A stretch of 64,000 nucleotides of DNA, taken from the sequence record ON286973. One strand, given 5' to 3'. A model generated the notes under the pieces. That model was not told where the DNA came from, made no database searches, and saw only the letters and a program-made list of their open reading frames with translations. Position 1 is the stretch's first letter. Each line of letters begins with the position of its first letter. The position numbers and the translations under genes were made by a program. Of this stretch, positions 1,765 through 45,178 are shown one piece after another. The stretch is from Escherichia phage A51.2.

Positions 1765-2700
1765 ATGACAAATGAGGAACGTATGATGAAGTATTTTAAT
1801 GCAGACGACCTAGTTGACAAAGGTCTTGTAACCAGTAGGTATTACCCAGATCTCGGGTTAAAGATCTATAAATATGCTAGAAAAGTATTTTACAACAATT
1901 TATGGCATTTGTCCCCTCGTTTACTGGAGTGCCGAGGCATTGTTGTAGGTAATGAAGGAAATGTTGTGGCATGGCCCTTCACAAAAGTGTTTAACTTGGG
2001 AGAAAACTCCACCAACCTGCCTGACAATAAGCTTGTGACTGCGGTAGAGAAAAAGAACGGATTCCTTGGTGTGGTATCATCTCATAAAGGTGACCTATTG
2101 TTCTCAACAACCGGGTCTCTTGATTCTCCATATTGTAACCTTGCAAAGGAAACCATCCAAGAGCAATGTGGTAATTTAGATCTTATCAAGAAGGTTATGG
2201 GCAATGAAAACATGACATTCATGTTTGAAATTTGTCACCCTTCAGATCCGCATATTGTTCAAGAAGACCATGGCGCATATTTGATAGGTTGCAGATATAA
2301 TGATTCTGGAATAATGCTACCAGAAGCAGCTTTAGATGGGATTGCCAAATACCTTGGTGCAAAACGTCCTCACACTGTGCGTGAAATCCCGTTCAGCTAT
2401 GCAAAAGAATTAGCCGCAGAAACAAGGGGCGAAGGGTATATGATCCGTAAGCCTTACTACCCTTATGACCTGCAGCTGAAGATCAAGTCTCCATACTACC
2501 TGGCACGGAAGGCCGTAATGAGGGGTAAAGCTTGGAAGATTTGGGATGATGATATCTTTAAACGTGTTGACGAAGAGTTTTACGGCATGGTAAACTTCAT
2601 TCGTAACAATTACACAGAAGATGTGTGGAACTGCCTCCTGGAGCAGGAACGCCGTGAGATACTTGATTACTATTTCCACAACGAGAACTATATGCAATGA
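1765..2700 (+). CDS. Putative RNA ligase / nucleotidyltransferase (K-x-[DN]-G motif I)
   Basis: 311-aa ORF with VEKKNGFLG resembling the covalent nucleotidyltransferase lysine motif; divergent from the kinase/phosphoesterase pair. Confidence 0.45.
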   Translation: MTNEERMMKYFNADDLVDKGLVTSRYYPDLGLKIYKYARKVFYNNLWHLSPRLLECRGIVVGNEGNVVAWPFTKVFNLGENSTNLPDNKLVTAVEKKNGFLGVVSSHKGDLLFSTTGSLDSPYCNLAKETIQEQCGNLDLIKKVMGNENMTFMFEICHPSDPHIVQEDHGAYLIGCRYNDSGIMLPEAALDGIAKYLGAKRPHTVREIPFSYAKELAAETRGEGYMIRKPYYPYDLQLKIKSPYYLARKAVMRGKAWKIWDDDIFKRVDEEFYGMVNFIRNNYTEDVWNCLLEQERREILDYYFHNENYMQ

Positions 2701-3047
2701 AGAAGTTGATTGTGTGGCTGGATGACTTGAGAGATCCGTCAAATTATGGGCTCCCAGACGCTATTTGGCTAAAGAATTCCTCCGAGTTTATAGATTTTAT
2801 TAACGATAGGGGAAAGCTCTACAGACGCGTTTCTGAGTGGCACATGGACAACGACCTTGGAGAGGTGTTCGAAGGGTACGATTGCCTATCTATGTTGGAG
2901 GAAAAATTTGTATTTGGTAAGCCCCCTGTAGTTGACAACGTGAAGATTTTCGTGCATACTTCTAACCCATCAGCGGCTCGTAAATTCATGCTTGCAGCTG
3001 ACTCGTTTAAAAAGTTTGGAATAGAGATTAAACAAAACATCTACTGA
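2697..3047 (+). CDS. Hypothetical protein
   Basis: 116-aa ORF overlapping the upstream stop (ATGA); sits immediately upstream of the Sir2-like gene. Confidence 0.45.
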   Translation: MKKLIVWLDDLRDPSNYGLPDAIWLKNSSEFIDFINDRGKLYRRVSEWHMDNDLGEVFEGYDCLSMLEEKFVFGKPPVVDNVKIFVHTSNPSAARKFMLAADSFKKFGIEIKQNIY

Positions 3048-3055
3048 GGACACTT

Positions 3056-3817
3056 ATGCGACGACTGATTATTATCTCCGGTGCTGGTTTGAGCGCTGAA
3101 TCTGGTATTCCCACTTTCCGATCTGGTAGCACTGCAATGTGGGAGAATTTCAGCATCGATGAGGTGTGCAACATCCACACCTTTGCCAAGAACTACTACA
3201 AGGTGCATGACTTTTACAATGCACGTCGTGTAGCTCTAGGCGGTGTTGAGCCTAACCTTGCACATCTTCGGATCGCTGAGTGGTATTCCCGCTGGTCTGG
3301 TCGTGTGATCAACCTTACCACCAATGTAGATGATTTGCTGGAGCGTGCGGGTGTAAAACATGAAGATATTTTACATGTTCACGGGTATTTGCCAGAAATA
3401 GTCTATGAGGACGATGAAGGAAGTGACGTCATTAAGGACATTGGATACTCTGAGGTAGATGCAGGAAAGTATACCTGGGTTAAACCTAATGTGGTGTTCT
3501 TCGGAGAAGTAGCTCCGAAGTATACAGACATGTATGACCTGTTGACTTCTCTTACAAGCAATGATATGGTTATCCTTGTAGGGTGTTCCAACACAGTTAT
3601 CAATTTTAACTGGGAGCTATTCCCTGCCTGCAATAAGGGAACCAAACTACTGATCGTTAATAAATACGACTCACAGCATCTAGAGGAGAATGGCATTTCA
3701 CGTAGTGATATTTACCAGTATGAGGATCGCGGCATCCCAGTTTGGTTTAACGGTGCGGTTGATGCCTTCTCTGATAAAACATTCATTGAGACCGTAGAAA
3801 ACTTTATGGAACTTTAA
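3056..3817 (+). CDS. Sir2-family (sirtuin-like) NAD-dependent protein
   Basis: N-terminal Rossmann motif GAGLSAESGIPTFR matches the canonical sirtuin GAG(I/V)SxxSGIPxFR; HG dipeptide at LHVHG; no Zn-ribbon cysteines. Confidence 0.8.
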   Translation: MRRLIIISGAGLSAESGIPTFRSGSTAMWENFSIDEVCNIHTFAKNYYKVHDFYNARRVALGGVEPNLAHLRIAEWYSRWSGRVINLTTNVDDLLERAGVKHEDILHVHGYLPEIVYEDDEGSDVIKDIGYSEVDAGKYTWVKPNVVFFGEVAPKYTDMYDLLTSLTSNDMVILVGCSNTVINFNWELFPACNKGTKLLIVNKYDSQHLEENGISRSDIYQYEDRGIPVWFNGAVDAFSDKTFIETVENFMEL

Positions 3818-37875: not shown

Positions 37876-38127
37876 ATGACGAAGATTGACTTGAATGCTG
37901 GTGATCATGTTGTTGTCAAATGCATTGGAGATTATCTTGGATTCACAATCGGCAATACTTACGAGGCGGTAGTGGCGAAGGTTTATCATGATAAAGTCCT
38001 CAGTCTTGTATTTGACTGCGATGATGATGGGGATGACCGATACGTCTGTGAGGTGCTGGCACGAGACGATAGTGAAGACCAGAAATTCCTGGTTATTGAA
38101 CTGAACGGTATTTTTGTAGAACGTTAA
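37876..38127 (+). CDS. Hypothetical protein
   Basis: ORF; start refined to ATG 37876 after AAGGAG. Confidence 0.4.
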   Translation: MTKIDLNAGDHVVVKCIGDYLGFTIGNTYEAVVAKVYHDKVLSLVFDCDDDGDDRYVCEVLARDDSEDQKFLVIELNGIFVER

Positions 38128-38155
38128 TTTAAAACAACATAAGGAGACTCTTACT

Positions 38156-38461
38156 ATGGCTAAATCTAAAGTTGAACTGTTCACCTCTCTTCCTTCTGAC
38201 ACTGCAGAACGTGATCGCCTTCGCAAAACAATTGAAGAACTGGTGGAACTCCAGCTTCAGATTAAAGATTTGAAAGATGCCATCAAGGATATCATTCTTG
38301 TTGAGAAGCAGGATCATCTGTATTCTCCTAAATTCATCAAATCTCTGGTGGCTACCGAGTTCGATATTCGATATGAGGCTGAAAAACGTCGAGCTAAAAT
38401 CGAAGAAGAGGTTGAGCACATGTCTGAGGCAGACATTCTGTTCAAACGCTCTGTAGAATAA
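38156..38461 (+). CDS. Hypothetical coiled-coil protein
   Basis: ORF. Confidence 0.4.
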   Translation: MAKSKVELFTSLPSDTAERDRLRKTIEELVELQLQIKDLKDAIKDIILVEKQDHLYSPKFIKSLVATEFDIRYEAEKRRAKIEEEVEHMSEADILFKRSVE

Positions 38462-38467
38462 TGACAA

Positions 38468-38495
38468 AGAGGGGGGCTTAGGCCCCTCTTTTTAC
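38468..38495 (+). terminator. Rho-independent terminator AGAGGGGGGC-TTA-GGCCCCTCT plus TTTTT
   Basis: Read directly. Confidence 0.7.
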
Positions 38496-38516
38496 TATCC
38501 ATGAAGGAGACTTGAG

Positions 38517-38849
38517 ATGGGTATACCGATCACTGTAAAAGAATTGAATGAACGTGATGCAGGTGGTCTATGGCCTGCACGAAAAATACACTGCATCCGT
38601 ATGAAAGAGAACCTTCAGCATCTTGAGCAACAGAAACGGATTGAGGTTGGTGATATTTTCGAAGTATTTTATTCTGATCGCCGTAACTGGGAAACCATTC
38701 AACCTTCCGGTTTTGTTCTTGCTAAGCTTGACACTGGAGAAGTGATTGTTCCTGGGTTGGATATTGTCTTCGAAATTATACAGGAGTGGGATCCGGACAA
38801 GATTAGATACGAAGAGCTATTCGGTGAAGGTATTATCAAACCTGTGTGA
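38517..38849 (+). CDS. Hypothetical protein
   Basis: ORF after AAGGAGA. Confidence 0.4.
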   Translation: MGIPITVKELNERDAGGLWPARKIHCIRMKENLQHLEQQKRIEVGDIFEVFYSDRRNWETIQPSGFVLAKLDTGEVIVPGLDIVFEIIQEWDPDKIRYEELFGEGIIKPV

Positions 38850-39157
38850 GGTGGATTATGTCTACAAAGGCGGCTAAATACTCCTATATGCCATCAACCT
38901 CTGCAGAGGTAGACTTTAGTTTCGATGTGTTTCCACTGTTTGAGGTGGTTCTGGCATACCCAACAATACTATCTACTCCTGAATCACTTGTGCCTGTTAA
39001 GTTGCAGAACGCTATGCATTCCATGCACTACAACAACAAATGTAGGCACAGATGGTGTCAGGACGAGGAAAAAGATTTGGATAGTTTGAGAGATTTTGAC
39101 AGTCACCTTTTGACACCTTTCAGCTACTCCAACCTTGATAAGCCCTCGTGGGTATAG
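38846..39157 (+). CDS. Hypothetical protein
   Basis: ORF. Confidence 0.4.
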   Translation: MRWIMSTKAAKYSYMPSTSAEVDFSFDVFPLFEVVLAYPTILSTPESLVPVKLQNAMHSMHYNNKCRHRWCQDEEKDLDSLRDFDSHLLTPFSYSNLDKPSWV

Positions 39158-39370
39158 CAAAATATCAAATTTAAGACACCTAGAACGCTCTGTGGCGTCC
39201 TTTTCTTTATCTGGTGCACGATTGCATACCTTGGGTAGTTAATTTCATTACAGAGCGTTTAAGAGCTCCCTACAAACAACCCCATATTTCGAGCGTAGCG
39301 AGAACGCACGTCCGTTTTGACCCAAATCACCATACGCTCGGATTTTAACCAAACCCTCGCGGCGTTTCTG

Positions 39371-39399
39371 TTGACACATTACCGATCCAGTGATAGTAT
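39371..39399 (+). promoter_or_regulatory. Sigma70-like promoter, TTGACA-17bp-TAGTAT
   Basis: Read directly. Confidence 0.45.
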
Positions 39400-39419
39400 C
39401 CACACATCGTTTGGAGAAT

Positions 39420-39521
39420 ATGGGATACACAATGAAAACATTGTCAGAGGTTTTGGTGGTGATCCTGATGATCATTACGTCCATAGTGGCTGTTGCCGGA
39501 ATACTCACGGGTGGAACATGA
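39420..39521 (+). CDS. Small membrane peptide, 33 aa (MGYTMKTLSEVLVVILMIITSIVAVAGILTGGT)
   Basis: Promoter and GGAGA RBS upstream; the long track ORFs 39317..39730 (+) and 39248..39589 (-) overlap it in other frames. Confidence 0.3.
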   Translation: MGYTMKTLSEVLVVILMIITSIVAVAGILTGGT

Positions 39522-39851
39522 TAAACACACATGCATCTGAAGAGACATCCAAAGGAGTGACTATATGTCCCTTGACTGAGCCAGTGCAAGAGGAAAACTT
39601 CGATTCTGAAGATTCTTCATCTTCGCTCCAGGTAGATCCTGAGGCTGATGACCTGACGTGGGAAGACATCGTAGATATCTGGTTCTCTATTATGCCTGAG
39701 CACGAAGAGTTCAGGGGTGGTAGACTATGAAGCACCGAGCCCACACAGGTTCCTCATGCTGAAGCATGGCCTGAAGAGGCAAACGTGCATAATTCCTGTG
39801 CATCGGAACGTATAAAACCCTGTTCACACTCTCATTTCCAGAGGAGATTTC

Positions 39852-40067
39852 ATGAAGATAGAAATATTTGGTGGAGCTGACAACACTCGTGGCCTGATTT
39901 ACCTTGAATTCGATGAATCATACCTGCCAGAGGTGTTAAATATAGACTCTGTTGCTGATGCTTTGGGAGTAAGTCCTAAAGATCTCTACTCTGGTGCTGA
40001 GATTGATGGTTGGGAGGAGACCATGAACATTGATTTCAGTGAAGTAGAGGATGAACCGCTGGACTGA
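39852..40067 (+). CDS. Small acidic protein, paralog family A (MKIEIFGG ... VEDEPLD)
   Basis: AGAGGAG RBS; family A N-terminus. Confidence 0.45.
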   Translation: MKIEIFGGADNTRGLIYLEFDESYLPEVLNIDSVADALGVSPKDLYSGAEIDGWEETMNIDFSEVEDEPLD

Positions 40068-40194
40068 CGCACAATTAGCTGCCCGGCCAAAGTGCTGGAA
40101 GCACCTATAACACATCTTTCAACTAAATTTCCCACCACCACAATCACTTACCTTCCACACATGACTGTTTGCTTGTTTAGTGAGCAGTCATGCC

Positions 40195-40222
40195 TTGACA
40201 TTCTTGCCTATCCTGATAAAAT
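40195..40222 (+). promoter_or_regulatory. Sigma70-like promoter, TTGACA-16bp-TAAAAT, inside the ORF-free region
   Basis: Read directly; preceded by inverted repeat CATGACTG ... CAGTCATG. Confidence 0.4.
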
Positions 40223-41588
40223 TAAGTTCTTCTCTTTTCTTTTACCGAGTAATTCGGGTTTTCTGTTCTCTTCGGTTTGAAGGGGTATAGAGATACACCT
40301 GAGTGAACAGGGTGAACAACCGAACCATTAGCTATGGCATTAGCATGGCGAAGCGGACGGGTGACGAAAGAGGGGCCGGAGGACACCAGTCACTGCCATA
40401 TGATATATGGGTGATAACCTGAAGAGTCTGAATAAGTGTTTAAGTACCAGTCAGAGGAAAAGGTGAATGGTAGCCGAAGGGGGGAGGGGGGTTTCTTGTA
40501 TCTTTAATTTGTATATTATGTATACACTTGTAAACCAATCTAATCTGAATCTGTTTACCACACAAAGCGGATAGAGACAAATATTGCCTATTAAACTTGA
40601 ATTATTTATAGAAAATACCACAACACCCCTTAAGTCTTTGATTTTACACACAAATCCTACAGATATTCAACCTCCATATTTAACATACTTGTAACATATT
40701 CCATACTCTACCTGCCTGATCAATTTCCCCAACTACATTCTCATATTTCCCCTGTCTGTACTACCCTGCCCCACCGGGAGTCCCGTCATATCTGGCTTTC
40801 CAGCAAATATCACACCCACAAATATCATGCCTGAAGAGGGTTTCATCCCATAATACCTGCCTTGCCTGAAGAGCGCTTCATACACCACGTAAATTTTTTA
40901 ATTGACCTCCCCTGCCCCGCCGGAGAGGTTGGCTTTTCCCACACAGACCTGGAGAGTCAGCCAGAAATATCTGAATAGGCCCAGTTCTACCACGATTTTG
41001 ACCTGACCTACAGGAGCGCTGCCAGGCGGACGAAATGGGAATACTTCTCATTCTTATAACAATTCTCAAATATCGAGGCAGTGAGGCAAATTAATAGGCC
41101 AGGCCGTTCACACAGTGGCACAACATTTGCAACCTATCTTGTGGGGTGAATGAGAATACCTATCATTGTGAGAACCATTATCATTACGGGCAATTTAACA
41201 TAATACCCATTATGCGCACCACTGGCGATCCATACAGGGATTGATAACACGAGTTACAGTTTACGCATATAACAATCATATTTCTTACTATTTGTGTGGG
41301 ATATAGTTAGCAGCCGATAGATTAGATATTGACCTGTGGACTTCCAACCGTCTAGACGTCTAAGCGCCCACACAACAAGGCTTATACATACATTACTGAA
41401 TGTAAACAGGGCCGCAAAAATGCTACCATACCAGTTTGTAAATTTTTCATGCAGCACTTGACAAAGAGGAGGAAAACTTGTCTGACACAATGTCACACAA
41501 TATGACACAATAACGGCTGTTACCATTCCATATCTCACTGTTTACGCATAGACTGTTTACGCCTGGATAGTTTACACAGATATGATAA

Positions 41589-41885
41589 GCCATGCCATTC
41601 GTTTGCATGAAAACAATTAACAAGATAACAATCGACAAGTTAATAATCTTTCGCTGGCTATGCCAGGTGACTAGGTCACCCCTTCGGGCGTTCCTATGAC
41701 ATAATATAAAAGCAGGGCAACTATTAGCAGATCTATAGTTGCCTTGCTTGTTATGTCATGATTAACTAAATACAAGGCAACTATGATCTGATTAATAGTT
41801 TGCAGACAAACTATCACGGGGGTGATGGTTACTGCTTTTATATTATGTCGCGACTCCGTCGCGCCATGCCATTCGTTTGCATAGT
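41589..41885. repeat. Composite repeat: 20-bp direct repeats GCCATGCCATTCGTTTGCAT (41589 and 41865) flanking nested inverted repeats (CATAATATAAAAGCAG/CTGCTTTTATATTATG; GGCAACTAT/ATAGTTGCC; GGTGAC-TAG-GTCACC; CGCGAC/GTCGCG)
   Basis: Read directly. Confidence 0.7.
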
Positions 41886-42494
41886 TGCCTTATTGTTATG
41901 AATAAAACAATTGCATTGTTAATGATTTCTTATCTTTCTATTAGTCATCTAATGATTTCAGTCAGGATAGTAATGTACAGTAAACATTAGACGACTAAAG
42001 ATTTCTCTGTTTATGATAACCTATCGTGACAATTTCGGACTGTTTACGAAAAATGTTGACACCTGAGCTGATTTATGTTATGCAGTTTACACGAATAATT
42101 ATTTTATACAGGTATTGACTATTCTGTTATTCTATGGTTGGAATAAATACTTAGCAGACTATAGAATGGTGAGCGTACGTAAATTCTGAGATCTGGCGGC
42201 TATAGTTATACTCGATTTTTCACGTAGAACGCGCTTTTGTGGTTATGTAAGTGTATGACTTATAAGAATTTTTATTTGTTGACAAGATATTGAAGATGTG
42301 CATCAGGTTAAAATTTGTGCAATAGCGGCATTACGTGCAATTTTGAGGGAGAAAACGGGTAAAAATGGCCCTGCTACCACACAATGAAAAATTATGCAAT
42401 AGTTATTTTATATGTATGTTTGTACAGTGTGTGGGATTGATGGCTAGTCAATTATTCCACTTGCCAGGCTGGGCCGTTTGTGGTAGGGGGAAGA

Positions 42495-42523
42495 GCAGAC
42501 AAAAAGAAAGGGGCCTAAGCCCC
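42495..42523 (-). terminator. Rho-independent terminator for the minus-strand block: GGGGC-TTAG-GCCCC followed by UUUCUUUUUG (minus-strand sense)
   Basis: Read directly, just downstream of the minus gene ending at 42544. Confidence 0.7.
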
Positions 42524-42543
42524 TTGATAATTCAGTTAAAAAA

Positions 42544-42963
42544 TTATAATGATTCGTATATTTCATAGATTCGATTTGCCAGGTCGTTACGATAACGAAA
42601 TTTTTCATCACGTTTGATCATCAGATCCTTAAATCCATATTCTTTAAGCACTTCATTAACTTTATAGCGGCATACCTTCATATTATCCTGAGCGTCACCG
42701 ATAAACTTGTTGCTATGATGCATGGCTTTGATCTCTTCCTCCAGGACCAGGGCAACTATGCGGACCGGATCAAGCTGATAGGCGGTAACATCCATGCGGC
42801 ATTGCAAACGGCTTTTTACGTCTGCCACCGGATATACTGCAACCTCTTCCCCGTCAACATTGACAATAATTAGTTTACCATCAATTTCAAAACCTTTCGC
42901 CGCCGGACCGTGACAAAAAGCGTTATCAAAGCTATATGCCGGATTATTAGATTTAATGTTCAT
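42544..42963 (-). CDS. Hypothetical protein
   Basis: 139-aa ORF. Confidence 0.45.
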   Translation of the reverse strand: MNIKSNNPAYSFDNAFCHGPAAKGFEIDGKLIIVNVDGEEVAVYPVADVKSRLQCRMDVTAYQLDPVRIVALVLEEEIKAMHHSNKFIGDAQDNMKVCRYKVNEVLKEYGFKDLMIKRDEKFRYRNDLANRIYEIYESL

Positions 42964-43109
42964 GGTGTTTTTACCTCTTAGTTAATTTTCTTACAACTTC
43001 CCTTCAAAAAAGAATATAGCAAAACTGCCGATCCTTGTCAACCAAGGATAGCATAATTTTTTATGTGATCAAGGGGCTTTATTGCCCCCCTGATCGTGCA
43101 ACTTGTTTA

Positions 43110-43373
43110 TTATTTGTTGCTCATCCAGTTTTCCCAGGCTGCCTGATAATCTGCCTCACTGCGGCGGATCTCTTCTTGTTCTTCAAGGCGGATCTCTTCT
43201 TCCAGGTACCCCAGTATATCGGCTTTTTTGGTCTGGCGTAGCATCCAGTCATCTTTTTTGCGGGTAAAGATCTTATAAGCTTTCTCGCAAACCTCTTTTT
43301 TGCTACCTTTCTGGACTTCAAGAACACGATAAGCCATATATTGAACTAGTTTGAGCTGGTCAAGACGTTTCAT
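43110..43373 (-). CDS. Hypothetical protein
   Basis: ORF; start refined to ATG 43373 after AGAGG. Confidence 0.4.
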   Translation of the reverse strand: MKRLDQLKLVQYMAYRVLEVQKGSKKEVCEKAYKIFTRKKDDWMLRQTKKADILGYLEEEIRLEEQEEIRRSEADYQAAWENWMSNK

Positions 43374-43434
43374 GATGTTTACCTCTTTATGCGGTTCTGG
43401 TTTGGTGGGCCTTTTGGCCCGTGTCATTATCTTA

Positions 43435-43707
43435 TTACTTATGGCGGCAGAATTCAAGCGTTTTTAATTGATAATCTTCCTCAGCCTGGAGTACTACCGC
43501 CTCGATCATTTCGTTGGCATTGTTAAAGCCATAACCTTTAGCGAACTCATCCGCGCCACCTTCGTGATCATGTTCTGCGTTCATCGCTTCCACAAAATGG
43601 AATTCCAAATTGTTGAGGTAGGGGCTTGATGTTCCGTCCTCTTTTTCGATGAGATCCCAAATAGCATTAAAACGTGATTCGACTTCTTGATTAATCCAGC
43701 TTGACAT
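43435..43707 (-). CDS. Hypothetical acidic protein
   Basis: ORF. Confidence 0.4.
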   Translation of the reverse strand: MSSWINQEVESRFNAIWDLIEKEDGTSSPYLNNLEFHFVEAMNAEHDHEGGADEFAKGYGFNNANEMIEAVVLQAEEDYQLKTLEFCRHK

Positions 43708-43928
43708 AGTGTTTTCCTCTCTCCTGGTTGTTGTGTGGGCACCTTTGCCCCTTCAAGATAAATGTTACCTCACCCCCATGGCAGATGTCAACGGTTTTTA
43801 TAGTTCTTATATGACAGGCAGGCCCGGTGATTGTCTCCCCCCTGTTCCCAAGTGCCGCCCGTTTAATAAGAATAACAAAAGGGGCCGAACAAGTCAACCC
43901 CAAAATCAGTACCAAAAACACTTTTTAT

Positions 43929-44240
43929 TTATACGGTCCGATCATTGGCCTTTGTCCAGGACCTGGCGATCCGTTTCCCGGTCACCTGGAACGGAGACTG
44001 CATTGTGTGTAATGAGTCCAGCGTAAGGGAGGACCGTTTACGGCGTATCTTCAGGATCGCTAACGTATTGTCCATCTCACGGCCAGGCCCTGGGCGGTAT
44101 GGTGTGCCTCCAGCGTTAAGGTTGATGATCTCATGTATTGAGATCCGGCGTTGTTTTGCTTCCGCATCTTTGAAGATAGCCAGCGGAGGCGCTATGCGTT
44201 GCCGATACCAATCTAAAACGGTTGGCGTAATAGCGATCAT
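43929..44240 (-). CDS. Hypothetical protein
   Basis: ORF; ATGA overlap with the upstream minus gene supports co-translation. Confidence 0.3.
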   Translation of the reverse strand: MIAITPTVLDWYRQRIAPPLAIFKDAEAKQRRISIHEIINLNAGGTPYRPGPGREMDNTLAILKIRRKRSSLTLDSLHTMQSPFQVTGKRIARSWTKANDRTV

Positions 44241-44428
44241 ATTTTACCCCCTATGTAGTCCGGTCGGTTTTTCTCTGTCATGCGCTTTAGCAATTCTTGC
44301 ATGTTACTTATGGCTTGTAGTGTATCCCCTTCCAGGCTTGAATCAACATAATCAGGATCGTCTATGACCTTTCTATGATTATGATAACGCAGTACTGCTA
44401 ATACCTTTCTAACTTGTTCGATATTCAT
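44237..44428 (-). CDS. Hypothetical protein
   Basis: ORF. Confidence 0.35.
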   Translation of the reverse strand: MNIEQVRKVLAVLRYHNHRKVIDDPDYVDSSLEGDTLQAISNMQELLKRMTEKNRPDYIGGKI

Positions 44429-44577
44429 TTTTACCGCTCTTTAAAACAAGGTGCCAACCGTTTCCAATAGATCACTGACCATCAGGACAATACTGATCAG
44501 CACATGCCTAACCATAAGGGGAAAGAGCGCCAGCGATCCCGCCACAATCCCCAAGGTGATGATTATCTTTCTCATGG

Positions 44578-44862
44578 TTAACGGTTTACGTAAGCTTTAC
44601 CGTTTACGGTGATGGGCAGATCTTCCAGGTCTGGATCTTCCTTAAGGTCGCGAGCAAGCTCACCGCACCGGATACCCTCGAATCCGTAGTACTCTGTTGT
44701 GCCGTCATTAAAAGTTTTAGCGGCAAGGCATAAGCGATAAGTAACCCCGATTTGATTGACGGCATGAATATCCGTTAGATTAACCTCTTTTGCCAGCTCT
44801 TTAGCCATTACAGGCGCATTAAGTCCAACAACCAGGGCAACCACTGCGATCATCTTTTTCAT
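44578..44862 (-). CDS. Secreted/periplasmic small protein with signal peptide
   Basis: MKKMIAVVALVVGLNAPVMA signal-peptide-like N-terminus. Confidence 0.45.
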   Translation of the reverse strand: MKKMIAVVALVVGLNAPVMAKELAKEVNLTDIHAVNQIGVTYRLCLAAKTFNDGTTEYYGFEGIRCGELARDLKEDPDLEDLPITVNGKAYVNR

Positions 44863-44953
44863 TGTGTCTATCCTCTTTCTGCTACGTTTAAGGCGGCGGT
44901 AACCGCCTGTTTATGCTTTGTTGGTTAATTTTCGGGTATCGGTATAAATTAAA

Positions 44954-45178
44954 CTATGCTGTACGCTCAACTATAACAACGGTTTGAGGGATCTCACCTT
45001 CCACCACTATCAAGGCCTTTTTCTGCGTGATGGATATCTTTACCCGTTGCAGCGTGGCGGTGAAGTCTTTCATTTCGTCACGTGGTGTTTTAGTGCAATA
45101 CCAGATCTCAGGCTTGCCGACCTGCAAGCCGCGCAAGAATTCCGTTTTACCTGTTTTATTCGTGATCATTTGATTCAC
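44954..45178 (-). CDS. Hypothetical protein
   Basis: ORF. Confidence 0.35.
   Translation of the reverse strand: MNQMITNKTGKTEFLRGLQVGKPEIWYCTKTPRDEMKDFTATLQRVKISITQKKALIVVEGEIPQTVVIVERTA

What the first reader, a model, noticed from the sequence alone, without database searches (positions are those of the whole stretch)
40068..42543. Roughly 2.5-kb ORF-poor, repeat-rich region at the convergence of the plus and minus gene blocks: candidate origin or ncRNA locus
No convincing protein-coding ORF spans this region. It contains: a good promoter (TTGACA-16-TAAAAT at 40195-40222) followed by GC-rich structured sequence ending in a G-tract (GGGGGGAGGGGGG, near 40480); a C-rich repeat zone (CCTGCCCCACCGGGAG / CCCCTGCCCCGCCGGAGAGG, and CCTGAAGAG twice) at 40700-40960; about eight copies of a CTGTTTAC(G/A)C motif (near 40552, 41258, 41541, 41561, 41572, 42007, 42041, 42083); three tandem GACACAAT octamers (41491-41518); and a composite element at 41589-41885 with 20-bp direct repeats flanking nested inverted repeats. 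These are hallmarks of a replication origin or protein-binding regulatory hub, or of structured non-coding RNA.
Basis: seen in the sequence. Interest (0 to 1): 0.7.

Follow-up and report, generated by a model that had tools for sequence, protein, structure and literature searches.

The report
Terminal-repeat genome ends of rV5-like phage
The gene-free 2.5 kb is where the two physical ends of this rV5-like E. coli phage chromosome meet in a circular assembly (a 458-bp terminal repeat plus flanking repeat-rich signal DNA), which is ordinary and already on record, although it also contains one unusually conserved, promoter-driven unit of about 270 nt that looks like an undescribed non-coding RNA.

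Summary
The window is an rV5-like Vequintavirus. The ORF-free stretch is real and is the 'non-coding' box of the 2013 rV5 paper. Four records from other groups (EdH4, ECP2309, Gotham, bov10K2) start at window 41025. Three of them end at 41482 with identical 459-bp repeats at both ends. CM1 carries a tandem duplicate starting at 41025. Korf et al. 2019 report '458 bp terminal redundancies'.

So the region is right-end non-coding DNA (40068-41024), the direct terminal repeat (41025-41482) and left-end non-coding DNA (41483-42543). The 'convergence' of gene blocks comes from circular assembly.

The repeats are real and enriched, and they sit at the repeat boundaries: a 10-bp x3 tandem at the first base after the repeat, a hypervariable TGTT(T/C)AC array, CTGRAGAG repeats, and a long inverted repeat whose arms co-vary with a sister lineage. 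I read them as end-recognition and processing signals (inferred). An origin is not supported: no DnaA boxes, and GC skew peaks here.

One part stands out. A consensus sigma-70 promoter (40195) drives a ~270-nt unit ending in G6AG6-TTTCTT. It is 96-99.5% identical in 118 genomes, has no ORF and no Rfam match, and is a candidate new ncRNA.

The parts
40195..40222 (+). Near-consensus sigma-70 promoter (TTGACA-16-TAAAAT, with TG). It is the last of 11 such promoters on the + strand, all of which lie in the + gene block.
   Evidence: nearly invariant in 20 genomes
40229..40498 (+). Ultra-conserved unit of about 270 nt, a candidate non-coding RNA. It contains a 5' 30-bp hairpin (40240-40320), the hairpin CCATAT-GAT-ATATGG (40396-40410), and a 3' 16-nt all-purine tract GAAGGGGGGAGGGGGG (40476-40491) followed by TTTCTT.
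   Evidence: pi = 0.010 against 0.033-0.073 in flanking ORFs. 96-99.5% identical in 118 records. 5' hairpin z = -4.6 on the + strand against -2.5 on the - strand. No conserved ORF and no codon periodicity. No Rfam match.
40499..40710 (.). AT-rich spacer (28-34% GC). Conservation drops sharply here.
40750..41024 (+). Right-end repeat zone that is C-rich on the + strand. It holds CTGRAGAG-type motifs (40831, 40866, 40949, with a related site at 40920), C-rich direct repeats (40761-40777, 40907-40923), and ends in the boundary motif GCTGCCA.
   Evidence: The boundary motif GCTGCCAGGC is shared with the A73 lineage.
41025..41482 (.). Direct terminal repeat (458 bp here). The left genome end starts at 41025 (GGCGGACG...) and the right genome end stops at 41482 (...AACTTGTC).
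   Evidence: EdH4 and ECP2309 carry 459-bp repeats, 100% identical, at both record ends, mapping to 41025-41482. bov10K2 starts at 41025. Gotham annotates repeat_region 1-459 and 136567-137025. CM1 has a tandem duplicate starting at 41025. PMC6563267.
41483..41512 (+). Three tandem 10-bp units T(G/C)ACACAAT(G/A), beginning at the first base after the terminal repeat.
   Evidence: copy number varies among relatives
41513..41588 (+). Hypervariable iteron array (TGTT(T/C)AC units, 15-bp period at 41540-41575). Copy number and content differ in every relative.
   Evidence: pi = 0.22
41589..41882 (.). Composite element bounded by 20-bp perfect direct repeats. It contains a long inverted repeat (41698-41715/41832-41849), two GGCAACTAT-N10-ATAGTTGCC-type palindromes, and small GC hairpins. 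FV3 lacks the 274 bp between the direct repeats (41589-41862), keeping one repeat copy.
   Evidence: The inverted-repeat arms co-vary with the A73 lineage.
41883..42507 (.). Left-end non-coding DNA, AT-rich (27-35% GC at 41900-42100), with further GTTTAC sites (41980 on the - strand, 42042, 42085).
42508..42525 (-). Intrinsic terminator (AAGGGGCTTAGGCCCCTT followed by a T-run) that closes the minus-strand gene block.

Best explanation
The region is the genome-end, or concatemer-junction, region of a Vequintavirus. The virion DNA is linear with a short exact direct terminal repeat, at window 41025-41482 (458 bp). A circular or collapsed assembly shows one repeat copy with the right-end unique DNA (40068-41024) on its left and the left-end unique DNA (41483-42543) on its right. 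That is why two gene blocks appear to converge on a gene-free gap. In the particle the two blocks sit at opposite ends, and each is transcribed toward its own end.

Shown here: the position and boundaries of the repeat, the absence of genes, the enrichment of the repeats and where they lie, and the conservation pattern.

Inferred, by analogy with T7-type phages: replication produces concatemers with one repeat per junction. The terminase or an end-processing machinery recognises motifs next to the two boundaries, namely GCTGCCA|GGC on the left, and TTGACAAAGA-N15|(TGACACAATG)x3 plus the iteron array on the right. It cuts at both boundaries, and the repeat is duplicated by DNA synthesis. The long, covarying inverted repeat just inside the left end is a candidate hairpin or paired binding site in that process.

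Separately, a genuine phage promoter at 40195 drives an ORF-less, nearly invariant unit of about 270 nt. It is most likely an early non-coding RNA specific to this genus. Its function is unknown.
For: Identity of the phage: 121 phage records match the region at 88-99% identity. The rV5 paper states there are no ORFs in the homologous 104013-106618.

Ends: EdH4 and ECP2309 start at 41025 and end at 41482 with 459-bp identical terminal copies, and bov10K2 starts at the same base. Gotham annotates both 459-bp repeats, which map to 41025-41482. CM1 has a perfect 523-bp tandem duplicate starting at 41025. Korf et al. report 458-bp terminal redundancies in EdH4 and HdK5. The Vequintavirinae phage KPP-1 has a 514-bp repeat. 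In the EdH4 record, genes at the start are on the - strand and genes at the end are on the + strand.

Repeats sit at the boundaries and are enriched. The array next to the right boundary is hypervariable.

Sister lineage (A73 group): it has the same gene order and a 2.1-kb gap that BLAST cannot align, yet it keeps GCTGCCAGGC, a G-tract, TTGACAAAGA followed by GACAC(T/A)AT, and a long inverted repeat followed by GTCGCGCC. The inverted-repeat arms differ at 5 positions, and all 5 differences are mirrored on the other arm.

T7-type model: repeat duplication during concatemer cleavage, with a hairpin intermediate, is summarised in PMC4281155.

The conserved unit.
Against: The ends are inferred for this window by homology (92-95% identity). 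No reads or virion DNA for this isolate were available. The rV5 paper and some PhageTerm reports call these genomes circularly permuted or headful-packaged. CM1's duplicated unit is 523 bp rather than 459 bp, so the right boundary may not be fixed.

No experiment links any of the repeats to the terminase. FV3 lacks the inverted-repeat element and is viable, so that part is dispensable.

For the conserved unit there is no expression data, no canonical terminator and no covariation. The whole-unit folding z-score is only -1.7. The sister lineage lacks the unit entirely.
Confidence: 0.8

Rival explanations
1. Replication origin. This could be an R-loop type, in which the transcript from P40195 ends in a polypurine/G-tract, stays hybridised next to the AT-rich 40499-40710 and primes DNA synthesis. 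Alternatively it could be an iteron type, in which a phage initiator binds the TGTT(T/C)AC array. This rival could coexist with the end function.
For: There is a strong promoter, a 16-nt all-purine 3' tract and a 28-34% GC tract immediately downstream. Iterons are enriched 5- to 10-fold. The phage has T7-like replication genes: a family-A polymerase in the window and a gp4-like primase-helicase reported in PMC3606486.
Against: There are no consensus DnaA boxes. Cumulative GC skew peaks here, which is the pattern of converging rather than diverging strands, although skew is confounded by transcription direction (PMC3606486). The promoter-driven unit is missing from the A73 lineage. Iteron copy number is unconstrained. 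No initiator gene is adjacent. From 40490, rightward synthesis reaches the right end after only 1 kb.
Confidence: 0.2
2. Headful (pac) packaging with circular permutation. On this reading the region holds the pac site, and the shared record start at 41025 marks the first pac cut rather than a fixed end with an exact repeat.
For: rV5 was described as circularly permuted. PhageTerm calls of 'circular permutated' or 'headful (PAC)' exist for bov10K2 and BpE1AUH, and bov10K2 still starts at 41025.
Against: Three groups deposited identical 459-bp copies at both ends with the same two boundaries, and Korf et al. state this explicitly. Headful packaging would not give a fixed right boundary.
Confidence: 0.1
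3. The whole 2.5 kb is mainly a non-coding RNA locus, with one or more long structured transcripts.
For: P40195 and the conserved unit. Many hairpins lie in 41650-41870.
Against: Only 40195-40498 is unusually conserved. The rest evolves as fast as, or faster than, synonymous sites and carries many indels. There is no Rfam hit. No strong promoter lies in 40500-42500. The stretch is physically split in the virion.
Confidence: 0.1
4. Neutral junk: decayed genes and a dumping ground for small mobile hairpin modules, with no function.
For: GC-rich hairpin modules of 33-50 bp come and go at 41004, 41611 and 41750. FV3 tolerates a 274-bp deletion.
Against: The gap, its size and its ordered motifs are kept in 121 genomes and in a sister lineage. 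The boundaries are exact. The inverted-repeat arms co-vary. One block is under stronger constraint than the neighbouring genes.
Confidence: 0.05

Closest known systems
Terminal redundancy of Vequintavirus phages EdH4/HdK5 (Korf et al. 2019, PMC6563267) and the annotated 459-bp repeat_region of phage Gotham (MT682716)
   Same: It is the same element, homologous at 92-95% identity, with the same two boundaries (window 41025 and 41482) and the same length.
   Different: Nothing essential differs. The literature gives one sentence and no anatomy. It does not connect the repeat to rV5's 'non-coding' box, nor does it describe the flanking motifs or the conserved unit.
T7/T3-type short direct terminal repeats and the concatemer junction
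   Same: Both have a short, exact, non-coding repeat at both ends, and one copy per junction that must be duplicated during maturation. A hairpin intermediate is reported for T7 (PMC4281155). From memory, T7 also has arrays of short repeats adjoining the repeat and a rightward promoter near the right end.
   Different: This is a 137-kb myovirus. About 1 kb of gene-free DNA lies on each side. The promoter is a host sigma-70 type rather than a phage-RNA-polymerase type. Both flanking gene blocks point outward toward the ends. No sequence similarity was found. The terminase clade was not tested.
Klebsiella phage KPP-1 (Vequintavirinae), 514-bp direct terminal repeat found by PhageTerm (PMC9862379)
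   Same: It belongs to the same subfamily and has a short repeat of similar size.
   Different: It is a different genus. Its position relative to genes was not checked here, and BLAST detected no DNA similarity.
R-loop primer RNAs: ColE1 RNA II and the mitochondrial LSP transcript with the CSB II G-tract (comparison from memory)
   Same: Both have a strong promoter, a structured RNA a few hundred nt long, and a G-rich purine tract (here G6AG6) followed by T-rich or AT-rich DNA.
   Different: This is a resemblance only. No hybrid, RNase H site or initiation point is known. The location and orientation fit poorly with whole-genome replication. No Rfam match was found.
Phage P4 ori/crr iterons TGTTCACC bound by the alpha primase-helicase (comparison from memory)
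   Same: The core TGTT(T/C)AC resembles the P4 octamer and occurs in clustered, variable-number copies.
   Different: No P4 alpha-type (D5/SF3) protein is reported for rV5. Its primase-helicase is gp4-like. The idea was not tested further and is treated only as a lead.

Membership tests
Short exact direct terminal repeat (T7-type) genome ends | The same sequence is present at both ends of the linear virion DNA. | tested here: met
   EdH4 and ECP2309 have 459-bp copies, 100% identical, at record start and end. Gotham has both copies annotated. All map to window 41025-41482. This is shown in close relatives, not in reads from this isolate.
Short exact direct terminal repeat (T7-type) genome ends | Fixed boundaries are shared by independent isolates. 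| tested here: met
   The left boundary at 41025 is found in five records from different groups (EdH4, ECP2309, Gotham, bov10K2, CM1). The right boundary at 41482 is found in three. CM1 suggests a boundary 64 bp further on.
Short exact direct terminal repeat (T7-type) genome ends | Twofold read coverage over the repeat and sharp read-start peaks at both ends, for this isolate. | not testable with these tools
   No reads are available. The literature is mixed: 458-bp redundancy against 'circularly permuted' or 'headful'.
Short exact direct terminal repeat (T7-type) genome ends | The large terminase subunit belongs to the clade of short-repeat packagers. | not tested
   The terminase gene lies outside the 64-kb window.
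Replication origin | Clustered initiator-binding repeats (iterons). | tested here: met
   GTTTAC occurs 10 times in 1.56 kb against 44 in the other 62 kb. CTGTTTACGC-like sites are 5-fold enriched. The binding protein is unknown.
Replication origin | DnaA boxes, for a host-initiated origin. | tested here: not met
   There are 0 consensus TTATCCACA sites and 1 relaxed TTWTNCACA site in the region.
Replication origin | Strand-composition switch of the origin type (a cumulative GC-skew minimum). | tested here: not met
   Cumulative GC skew is at its maximum at about 40 kb. This is confounded by transcription direction, as the rV5 paper also notes.
Replication origin | Mapped initiation of DNA synthesis. 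| not testable with these tools
   This needs marker-frequency or 2D-gel data.
Any described RNA family (Rfam 15) | A covariance-model match at or near the gathering score. | tested here: not met
   0 hits at E<=1 over 38000-45000. The best hits on the unit alone have E = 4.7 and 6.3, at 10-13 bits against a cut-off of 45 bits. No tRNA or tmRNA was found.
Structured non-coding RNA (generic), for 40229-40498 | Its own promoter, and conservation above that of neighbouring genes, without an ORF. | tested here: met
   (promoter class). pi = 0.010 against 0.033-0.073. ORFs are frame-broken by G-run length and indels.
Structured non-coding RNA (generic), for 40229-40498 | Base-pair covariation, or a fold more stable than chance. 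| tested here: inconclusive
   5' hairpin: z = -4.6, with 8 G.U pairs that make it strand-specific. Whole unit: z = -1.7. The only stem polymorphism is U-A to U-G. Variation clusters in a hairpin loop. No compensatory changes are available in 24 sequences.
Structured non-coding RNA (generic), for 40229-40498 | A detected transcript with defined ends. | not testable with these tools
   No Vequintavirus transcriptome was found in the searchable literature.

The most novel reading that the evidence does not exclude
The promoter-driven unit of about 270 nt is a new, genus-specific phage RNA. Its 16-nt polypurine/G-tract 3' end would stay hybridised to the C-rich template as an R-loop about 530 bp upstream of the terminal repeat and prime rightward DNA synthesis through it. 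That would supply the second repeat copy needed when concatemers are cut. It would be a host-polymerase, RNA-primed solution to the repeat-duplication problem that T7 solves with its own polymerase.
Probability: 0.1. Interest if true: 0.7.

Novelty: already known. Interest (0 to 1): 0.3.

Why it matters
Practically, the result corrects how this genus is read. The 'non-coding box' and the 'convergent gene blocks' of rV5-type maps are the chromosome ends, and most of the ~120 deposited genomes are opened elsewhere, some with the repeat duplicated and annotated as genes (CM1). Knowing the ends and their flanking signals matters for engineering and rebooting these therapeutic O157 phages and for interpreting packaging predictions.

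Scientifically, the only piece that could be new is the invariant promoter-driven unit. If it is expressed, it is an undescribed early phage RNA under stronger constraint than any neighbouring gene.

Tried and rejected
1. Known RNA families. Rfam scans of 38000-45000 and of the unit alone found nothing. ARAGORN found nothing.

2. Divergent homologues of the unit for a covariation test.
- Distant BLAST in the phage collection found only Vequintavirus, at 96-99.5% identity.
- A viral-contig pattern scan gave 1 true hit among 14.
- The metagenome scan gave 4 contigs with the same few variants.
- A covariance model of the 5' domain found no homologue in the A73 group, best E = 0.61.
The test therefore has no power.

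3. Host mimicry or antisense. There is no match in 5,426 E. coli genomes.

4. Small protein in the unit. The candidates are 40303-40422 (GTG start, 39 aa) and 40467-40574 (ATG start, 35 aa, with a plausible GAGG ribosome-binding site). G-run length changes and indels break the reading frame among relatives, and substitutions show no codon periodicity. Rejected.

5. DnaA-type origin. No boxes are present.

6. Mobile element with a target-site duplication, for 41589-41882. A 20-bp repeat is too long for a target duplication, and the same layout (repeat, inverted repeat, GTCGCGCC, repeat) exists in the A73 lineage with different repeats. FV3's loss fits recombination between the repeats.

7. Shared-motif statistics between the two lineages. 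The excess over shuffles (31 against 7 shared 10-mers) is weakened by an opposite-orientation control of 22. I rely only on the collinear named motifs.

8. Literature. No transcriptome or ncRNA report for the subfamily was found.
Full report
**What the window is.** The 2.5-kb stretch matches 121 phage records at 88-99% identity. All are rV5-like Vequintavirus, including a set of 'UNVERIFIED Campylobacter phage' records. It is homologous to rV5 104013-106618. The 2013 genome paper described that stretch as having 'no observable ORFs' and drew it as a grey 'non-coding' box. It noted a GC/AT-skew change there that it attributed to transcription direction, and it offered no function.

**Checking the observation.**
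- ORFs: no ORF over 94 aa lies in 40068-42543.
- Promoter: it is exactly where stated, with 11 of 12 matches plus a TG.
- G-tract: at 40479-40491.
- Repeats: the C-rich repeats, the TGCCTGAAGAG repeats, the 20-bp perfect direct repeats and the nested inverted repeats are all present.
The family is still real, with GTTTAC 10 times in 1.56 kb against 44 times in the other 62 kb, and eight CTGTTTACGC-like sites at up to 2 mismatches.
- 'Octamers': these are three 10-bp units at 41483-41512.
- CCTGAAGAG: 4 occurrences against 0.47 expected.

So the description holds, with minor corrections.

**The decisive finding.** In the BLAST tables, many records begin or end inside this region. I fetched both ends of three such records.
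- EdH4 and ECP2309 start at window 41025 (GGCGGACG...) and end at window 41482 (...AACTTGTC). The first and last 459 bp of each record are 100% identical.
- bov10K2 starts at the same base.
- Gotham explicitly annotates repeat_region 1-459 and 136567-137025, and these map to 41025-41482.
- CM1 contains a perfect 523-bp tandem duplication whose unit starts at 41025. Both repeat copies were evidently kept in a circularised record, and two 'hypothetical proteins' were then called inside it.
- Korf et al. [quoted passage not shown]
- A Klebsiella member of the subfamily has a 514-bp repeat.

The region is therefore the genome-end region: right-end unique DNA (40068-41024), the direct terminal repeat (41025-41482), and left-end unique DNA (41483-42543). 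In EdH4's linear record, the first genes are on the minus strand and the last genes on the plus strand. The 'convergence' therefore exists only in circular assemblies.

**Anatomy and conservation.** I aligned 13 genomes over 5.5 kb.

| Segment | Nucleotide diversity (pi) |
|---|---|
| Flanking ORFs | 0.033-0.073, with substitutions mostly at third codon positions in three of the four tested |
| Terminal repeat (41025-41482) | 0.055 |
| 40499-41024 | 0.086 |
| Array just after the repeat (41483-41588) | 0.22 |
| Conserved unit (40138-40498) | 0.010 |

The array just after the repeat has copy-number changes of the 10-bp and TGTT(T/C)AC units in every genome.

FV3 lacks the 274 bp between the 20-bp direct repeats and keeps one repeat copy, so that element is dispensable.

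Small GC-rich hairpin modules of 33-50 bp are present or absent at 41004, 41611 and 41750 in different phages.

**A sister lineage.** A73, A5-4, A7_1, LTH01 and UPEC06 are unclassified Vequintavirinae. They share the flanking genes at 72% DNA identity and have a 2.1-kb gap at the same place, which BLAST cannot align. Reading the gap shows the same kinds of parts in nearly the same order:
- an array of CCAC(A/G)GAG repeats at about 20-bp spacing, where the window has CTGRAGAG;
- GCTGCCAGGC, the window's left boundary motif;
- a G5AG5AG5 tract;
- a conserved block of about 400 bp followed by a hypervariable zone;
- TTGACAAAGA, followed about 19 nt later by AGACACTAT;
- a long inverted repeat followed by GTCGCGCC and a lineage-specific repeat.

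The inverted-repeat arms are perfectly complementary in both lineages. They differ at five positions (T to C, a 2-nt indel, and a GC to CG swap), and every difference is mirrored on the partner arm. All 15 Vequintavirus genomes that carry the element keep both arms intact, while the interior varies from 115 to 149 nt. This is real covariation. It cannot distinguish a hairpin or cruciform from two inverted sites for one protein.

**The mechanism I commit to.** This is a T7-type life cycle for the ends. Concatemers carry one repeat per junction. Boundary-adjacent motifs recruit the packaging and processing machinery. Cuts occur at 41024|41025 and 41482|41483, and the repeat is duplicated by DNA synthesis. 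PMC4281155 summarises that model, including a hairpin intermediate seen in T7. The boundary positions are shown. The roles of the motifs are inferred.

**The origin hypothesis.** It gains little support.
- There are no DnaA boxes.
- Cumulative skew peaks here rather than reaching a minimum.
- Iteron numbers are unconstrained.

AT-rich tracts do exist at 40500-40700 and 41900-42100, so I cannot exclude an origin.

**The conserved unit.** P40195 belongs to the phage's genuine promoter class. The window has 23 near-consensus sigma-70 promoters. The 11 on the + strand all lie in the + gene block, and 11 of the 12 on the - strand lie in the - block.

Downstream of it, about 270 nt are 96-99.5% identical in 118 records and almost invariant in 24 sequences. 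The unit ends at G4-6AG5-6-TTTCTT, and conservation collapses immediately afterwards.

Candidate small ORFs are frame-broken among relatives.

The 5' 30-bp hairpin is much more stable than shuffled sequence on the + strand only (z = -4.6 against -2.5). It contains 8 G.U pairs.

The few variants sit in three places: a hairpin loop, one hypervariable spot (40326-40330), and a U-A to U-G change in a stem.

The unit has no Rfam match, no E. coli similarity and no homologue in the A73 group. No transcriptome is available.

I rate it about 0.55 likely to be a real early non-coding RNA. Its function is open. The polypurine 3' end invites an R-loop or primer idea, which I hold at low probability.

**Verdict.** The finding is a correct description of a feature that is already on record, namely rV5's non-coding box and the Vequintavirus terminal repeat. 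The residual novelty lies in the conserved promoter-driven unit and in the covarying inverted repeat beside the left end.

Noticed in passing
L003 (Shigella phage CM1, MK962749) 2530-3575; corresponds to window 41025 onward: There is a perfect 523-bp tandem duplication starting exactly at the left repeat boundary. Both terminal-repeat copies appear to have been retained in a circularised record. The two annotated 'hypothetical proteins' (CM1_00155 and CM1_00156) lie inside it and are probably spurious. The unit is 64 bp longer than the 459-bp repeat of EdH4 and Gotham.
   Followed up: yes
window 41004, 41611, 41750 (insertions in L001/L003/L012/L017-18; L007; L002/L008/L009): Small GC-rich hairpin modules of 33-50 bp (for example TTAACATCCTCGAGACGAAGGCTATGCCTGAGT and GACCTACAGGGAGGCCCGAAGGGTCTAGC...) are present or absent at different sites in different phages. 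A related module sits at two different positions. They may be miniature mobile hairpins.
   Followed up: partly
window 42531-43103: The 139-aa ORF164 homologue (42544-42963, - strand) and its promoter region are absent as a clean 573-bp deletion in FV3 and HMD-6, and also in EdH4. It is an accessory gene directly next to the left-end non-coding DNA.
   Followed up: partly
whole window (for example 6259, 24875, 40195 on the + strand; 43041, 55478, 60595 on the - strand): There are 23 near-consensus sigma-70 promoters (at least 11 of 12 matches). Their strand matches the local gene block in all but one case (1396, - strand, at the window edge where skew also flips). The phage appears to rely on host-type promoters throughout its early regions.
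   Followed up: partly
(MG0656xx records): 19 records named 'Campylobacter phage' (UNVERIFIED, unannotated) are ordinary E. coli-type Vequintavirus genomes at 89-95% identity. The host attribution looks wrong, or the phages were contaminants.
   Followed up: no
window 40326-40349: Inside the otherwise invariant unit there is a 12-bp tandem (CATTAGC(T)ATGG, 2.1 copies). The first copy holds the only hypervariable spot (40326-40330, with at least 7 variants among 20 genomes).
   Followed up: partly
L034 (phage A73) 7258-7463 and 8078-8240: In the A73 end region, the small ORF A73_2 has DNA-level homologues (68-77% identity) in jumbo phages of the PBECO4/121Q group, so it is probably a real gene. 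A73 alone also carries a ~100-bp duplication that contains a 57-bp repeat (CCCCGCCATACTCTGGCAATAAAAGCAAG...).
   Followed up: no
window 40548-40555: ATCTGTTT occurs just downstream of the G-tract. From memory it matches the core of the T7 RNA polymerase class II pause/termination signal found at the T7 concatemer junction. It is probably coincidental, since no phage RNA polymerase is known for rV5.
   Followed up: no
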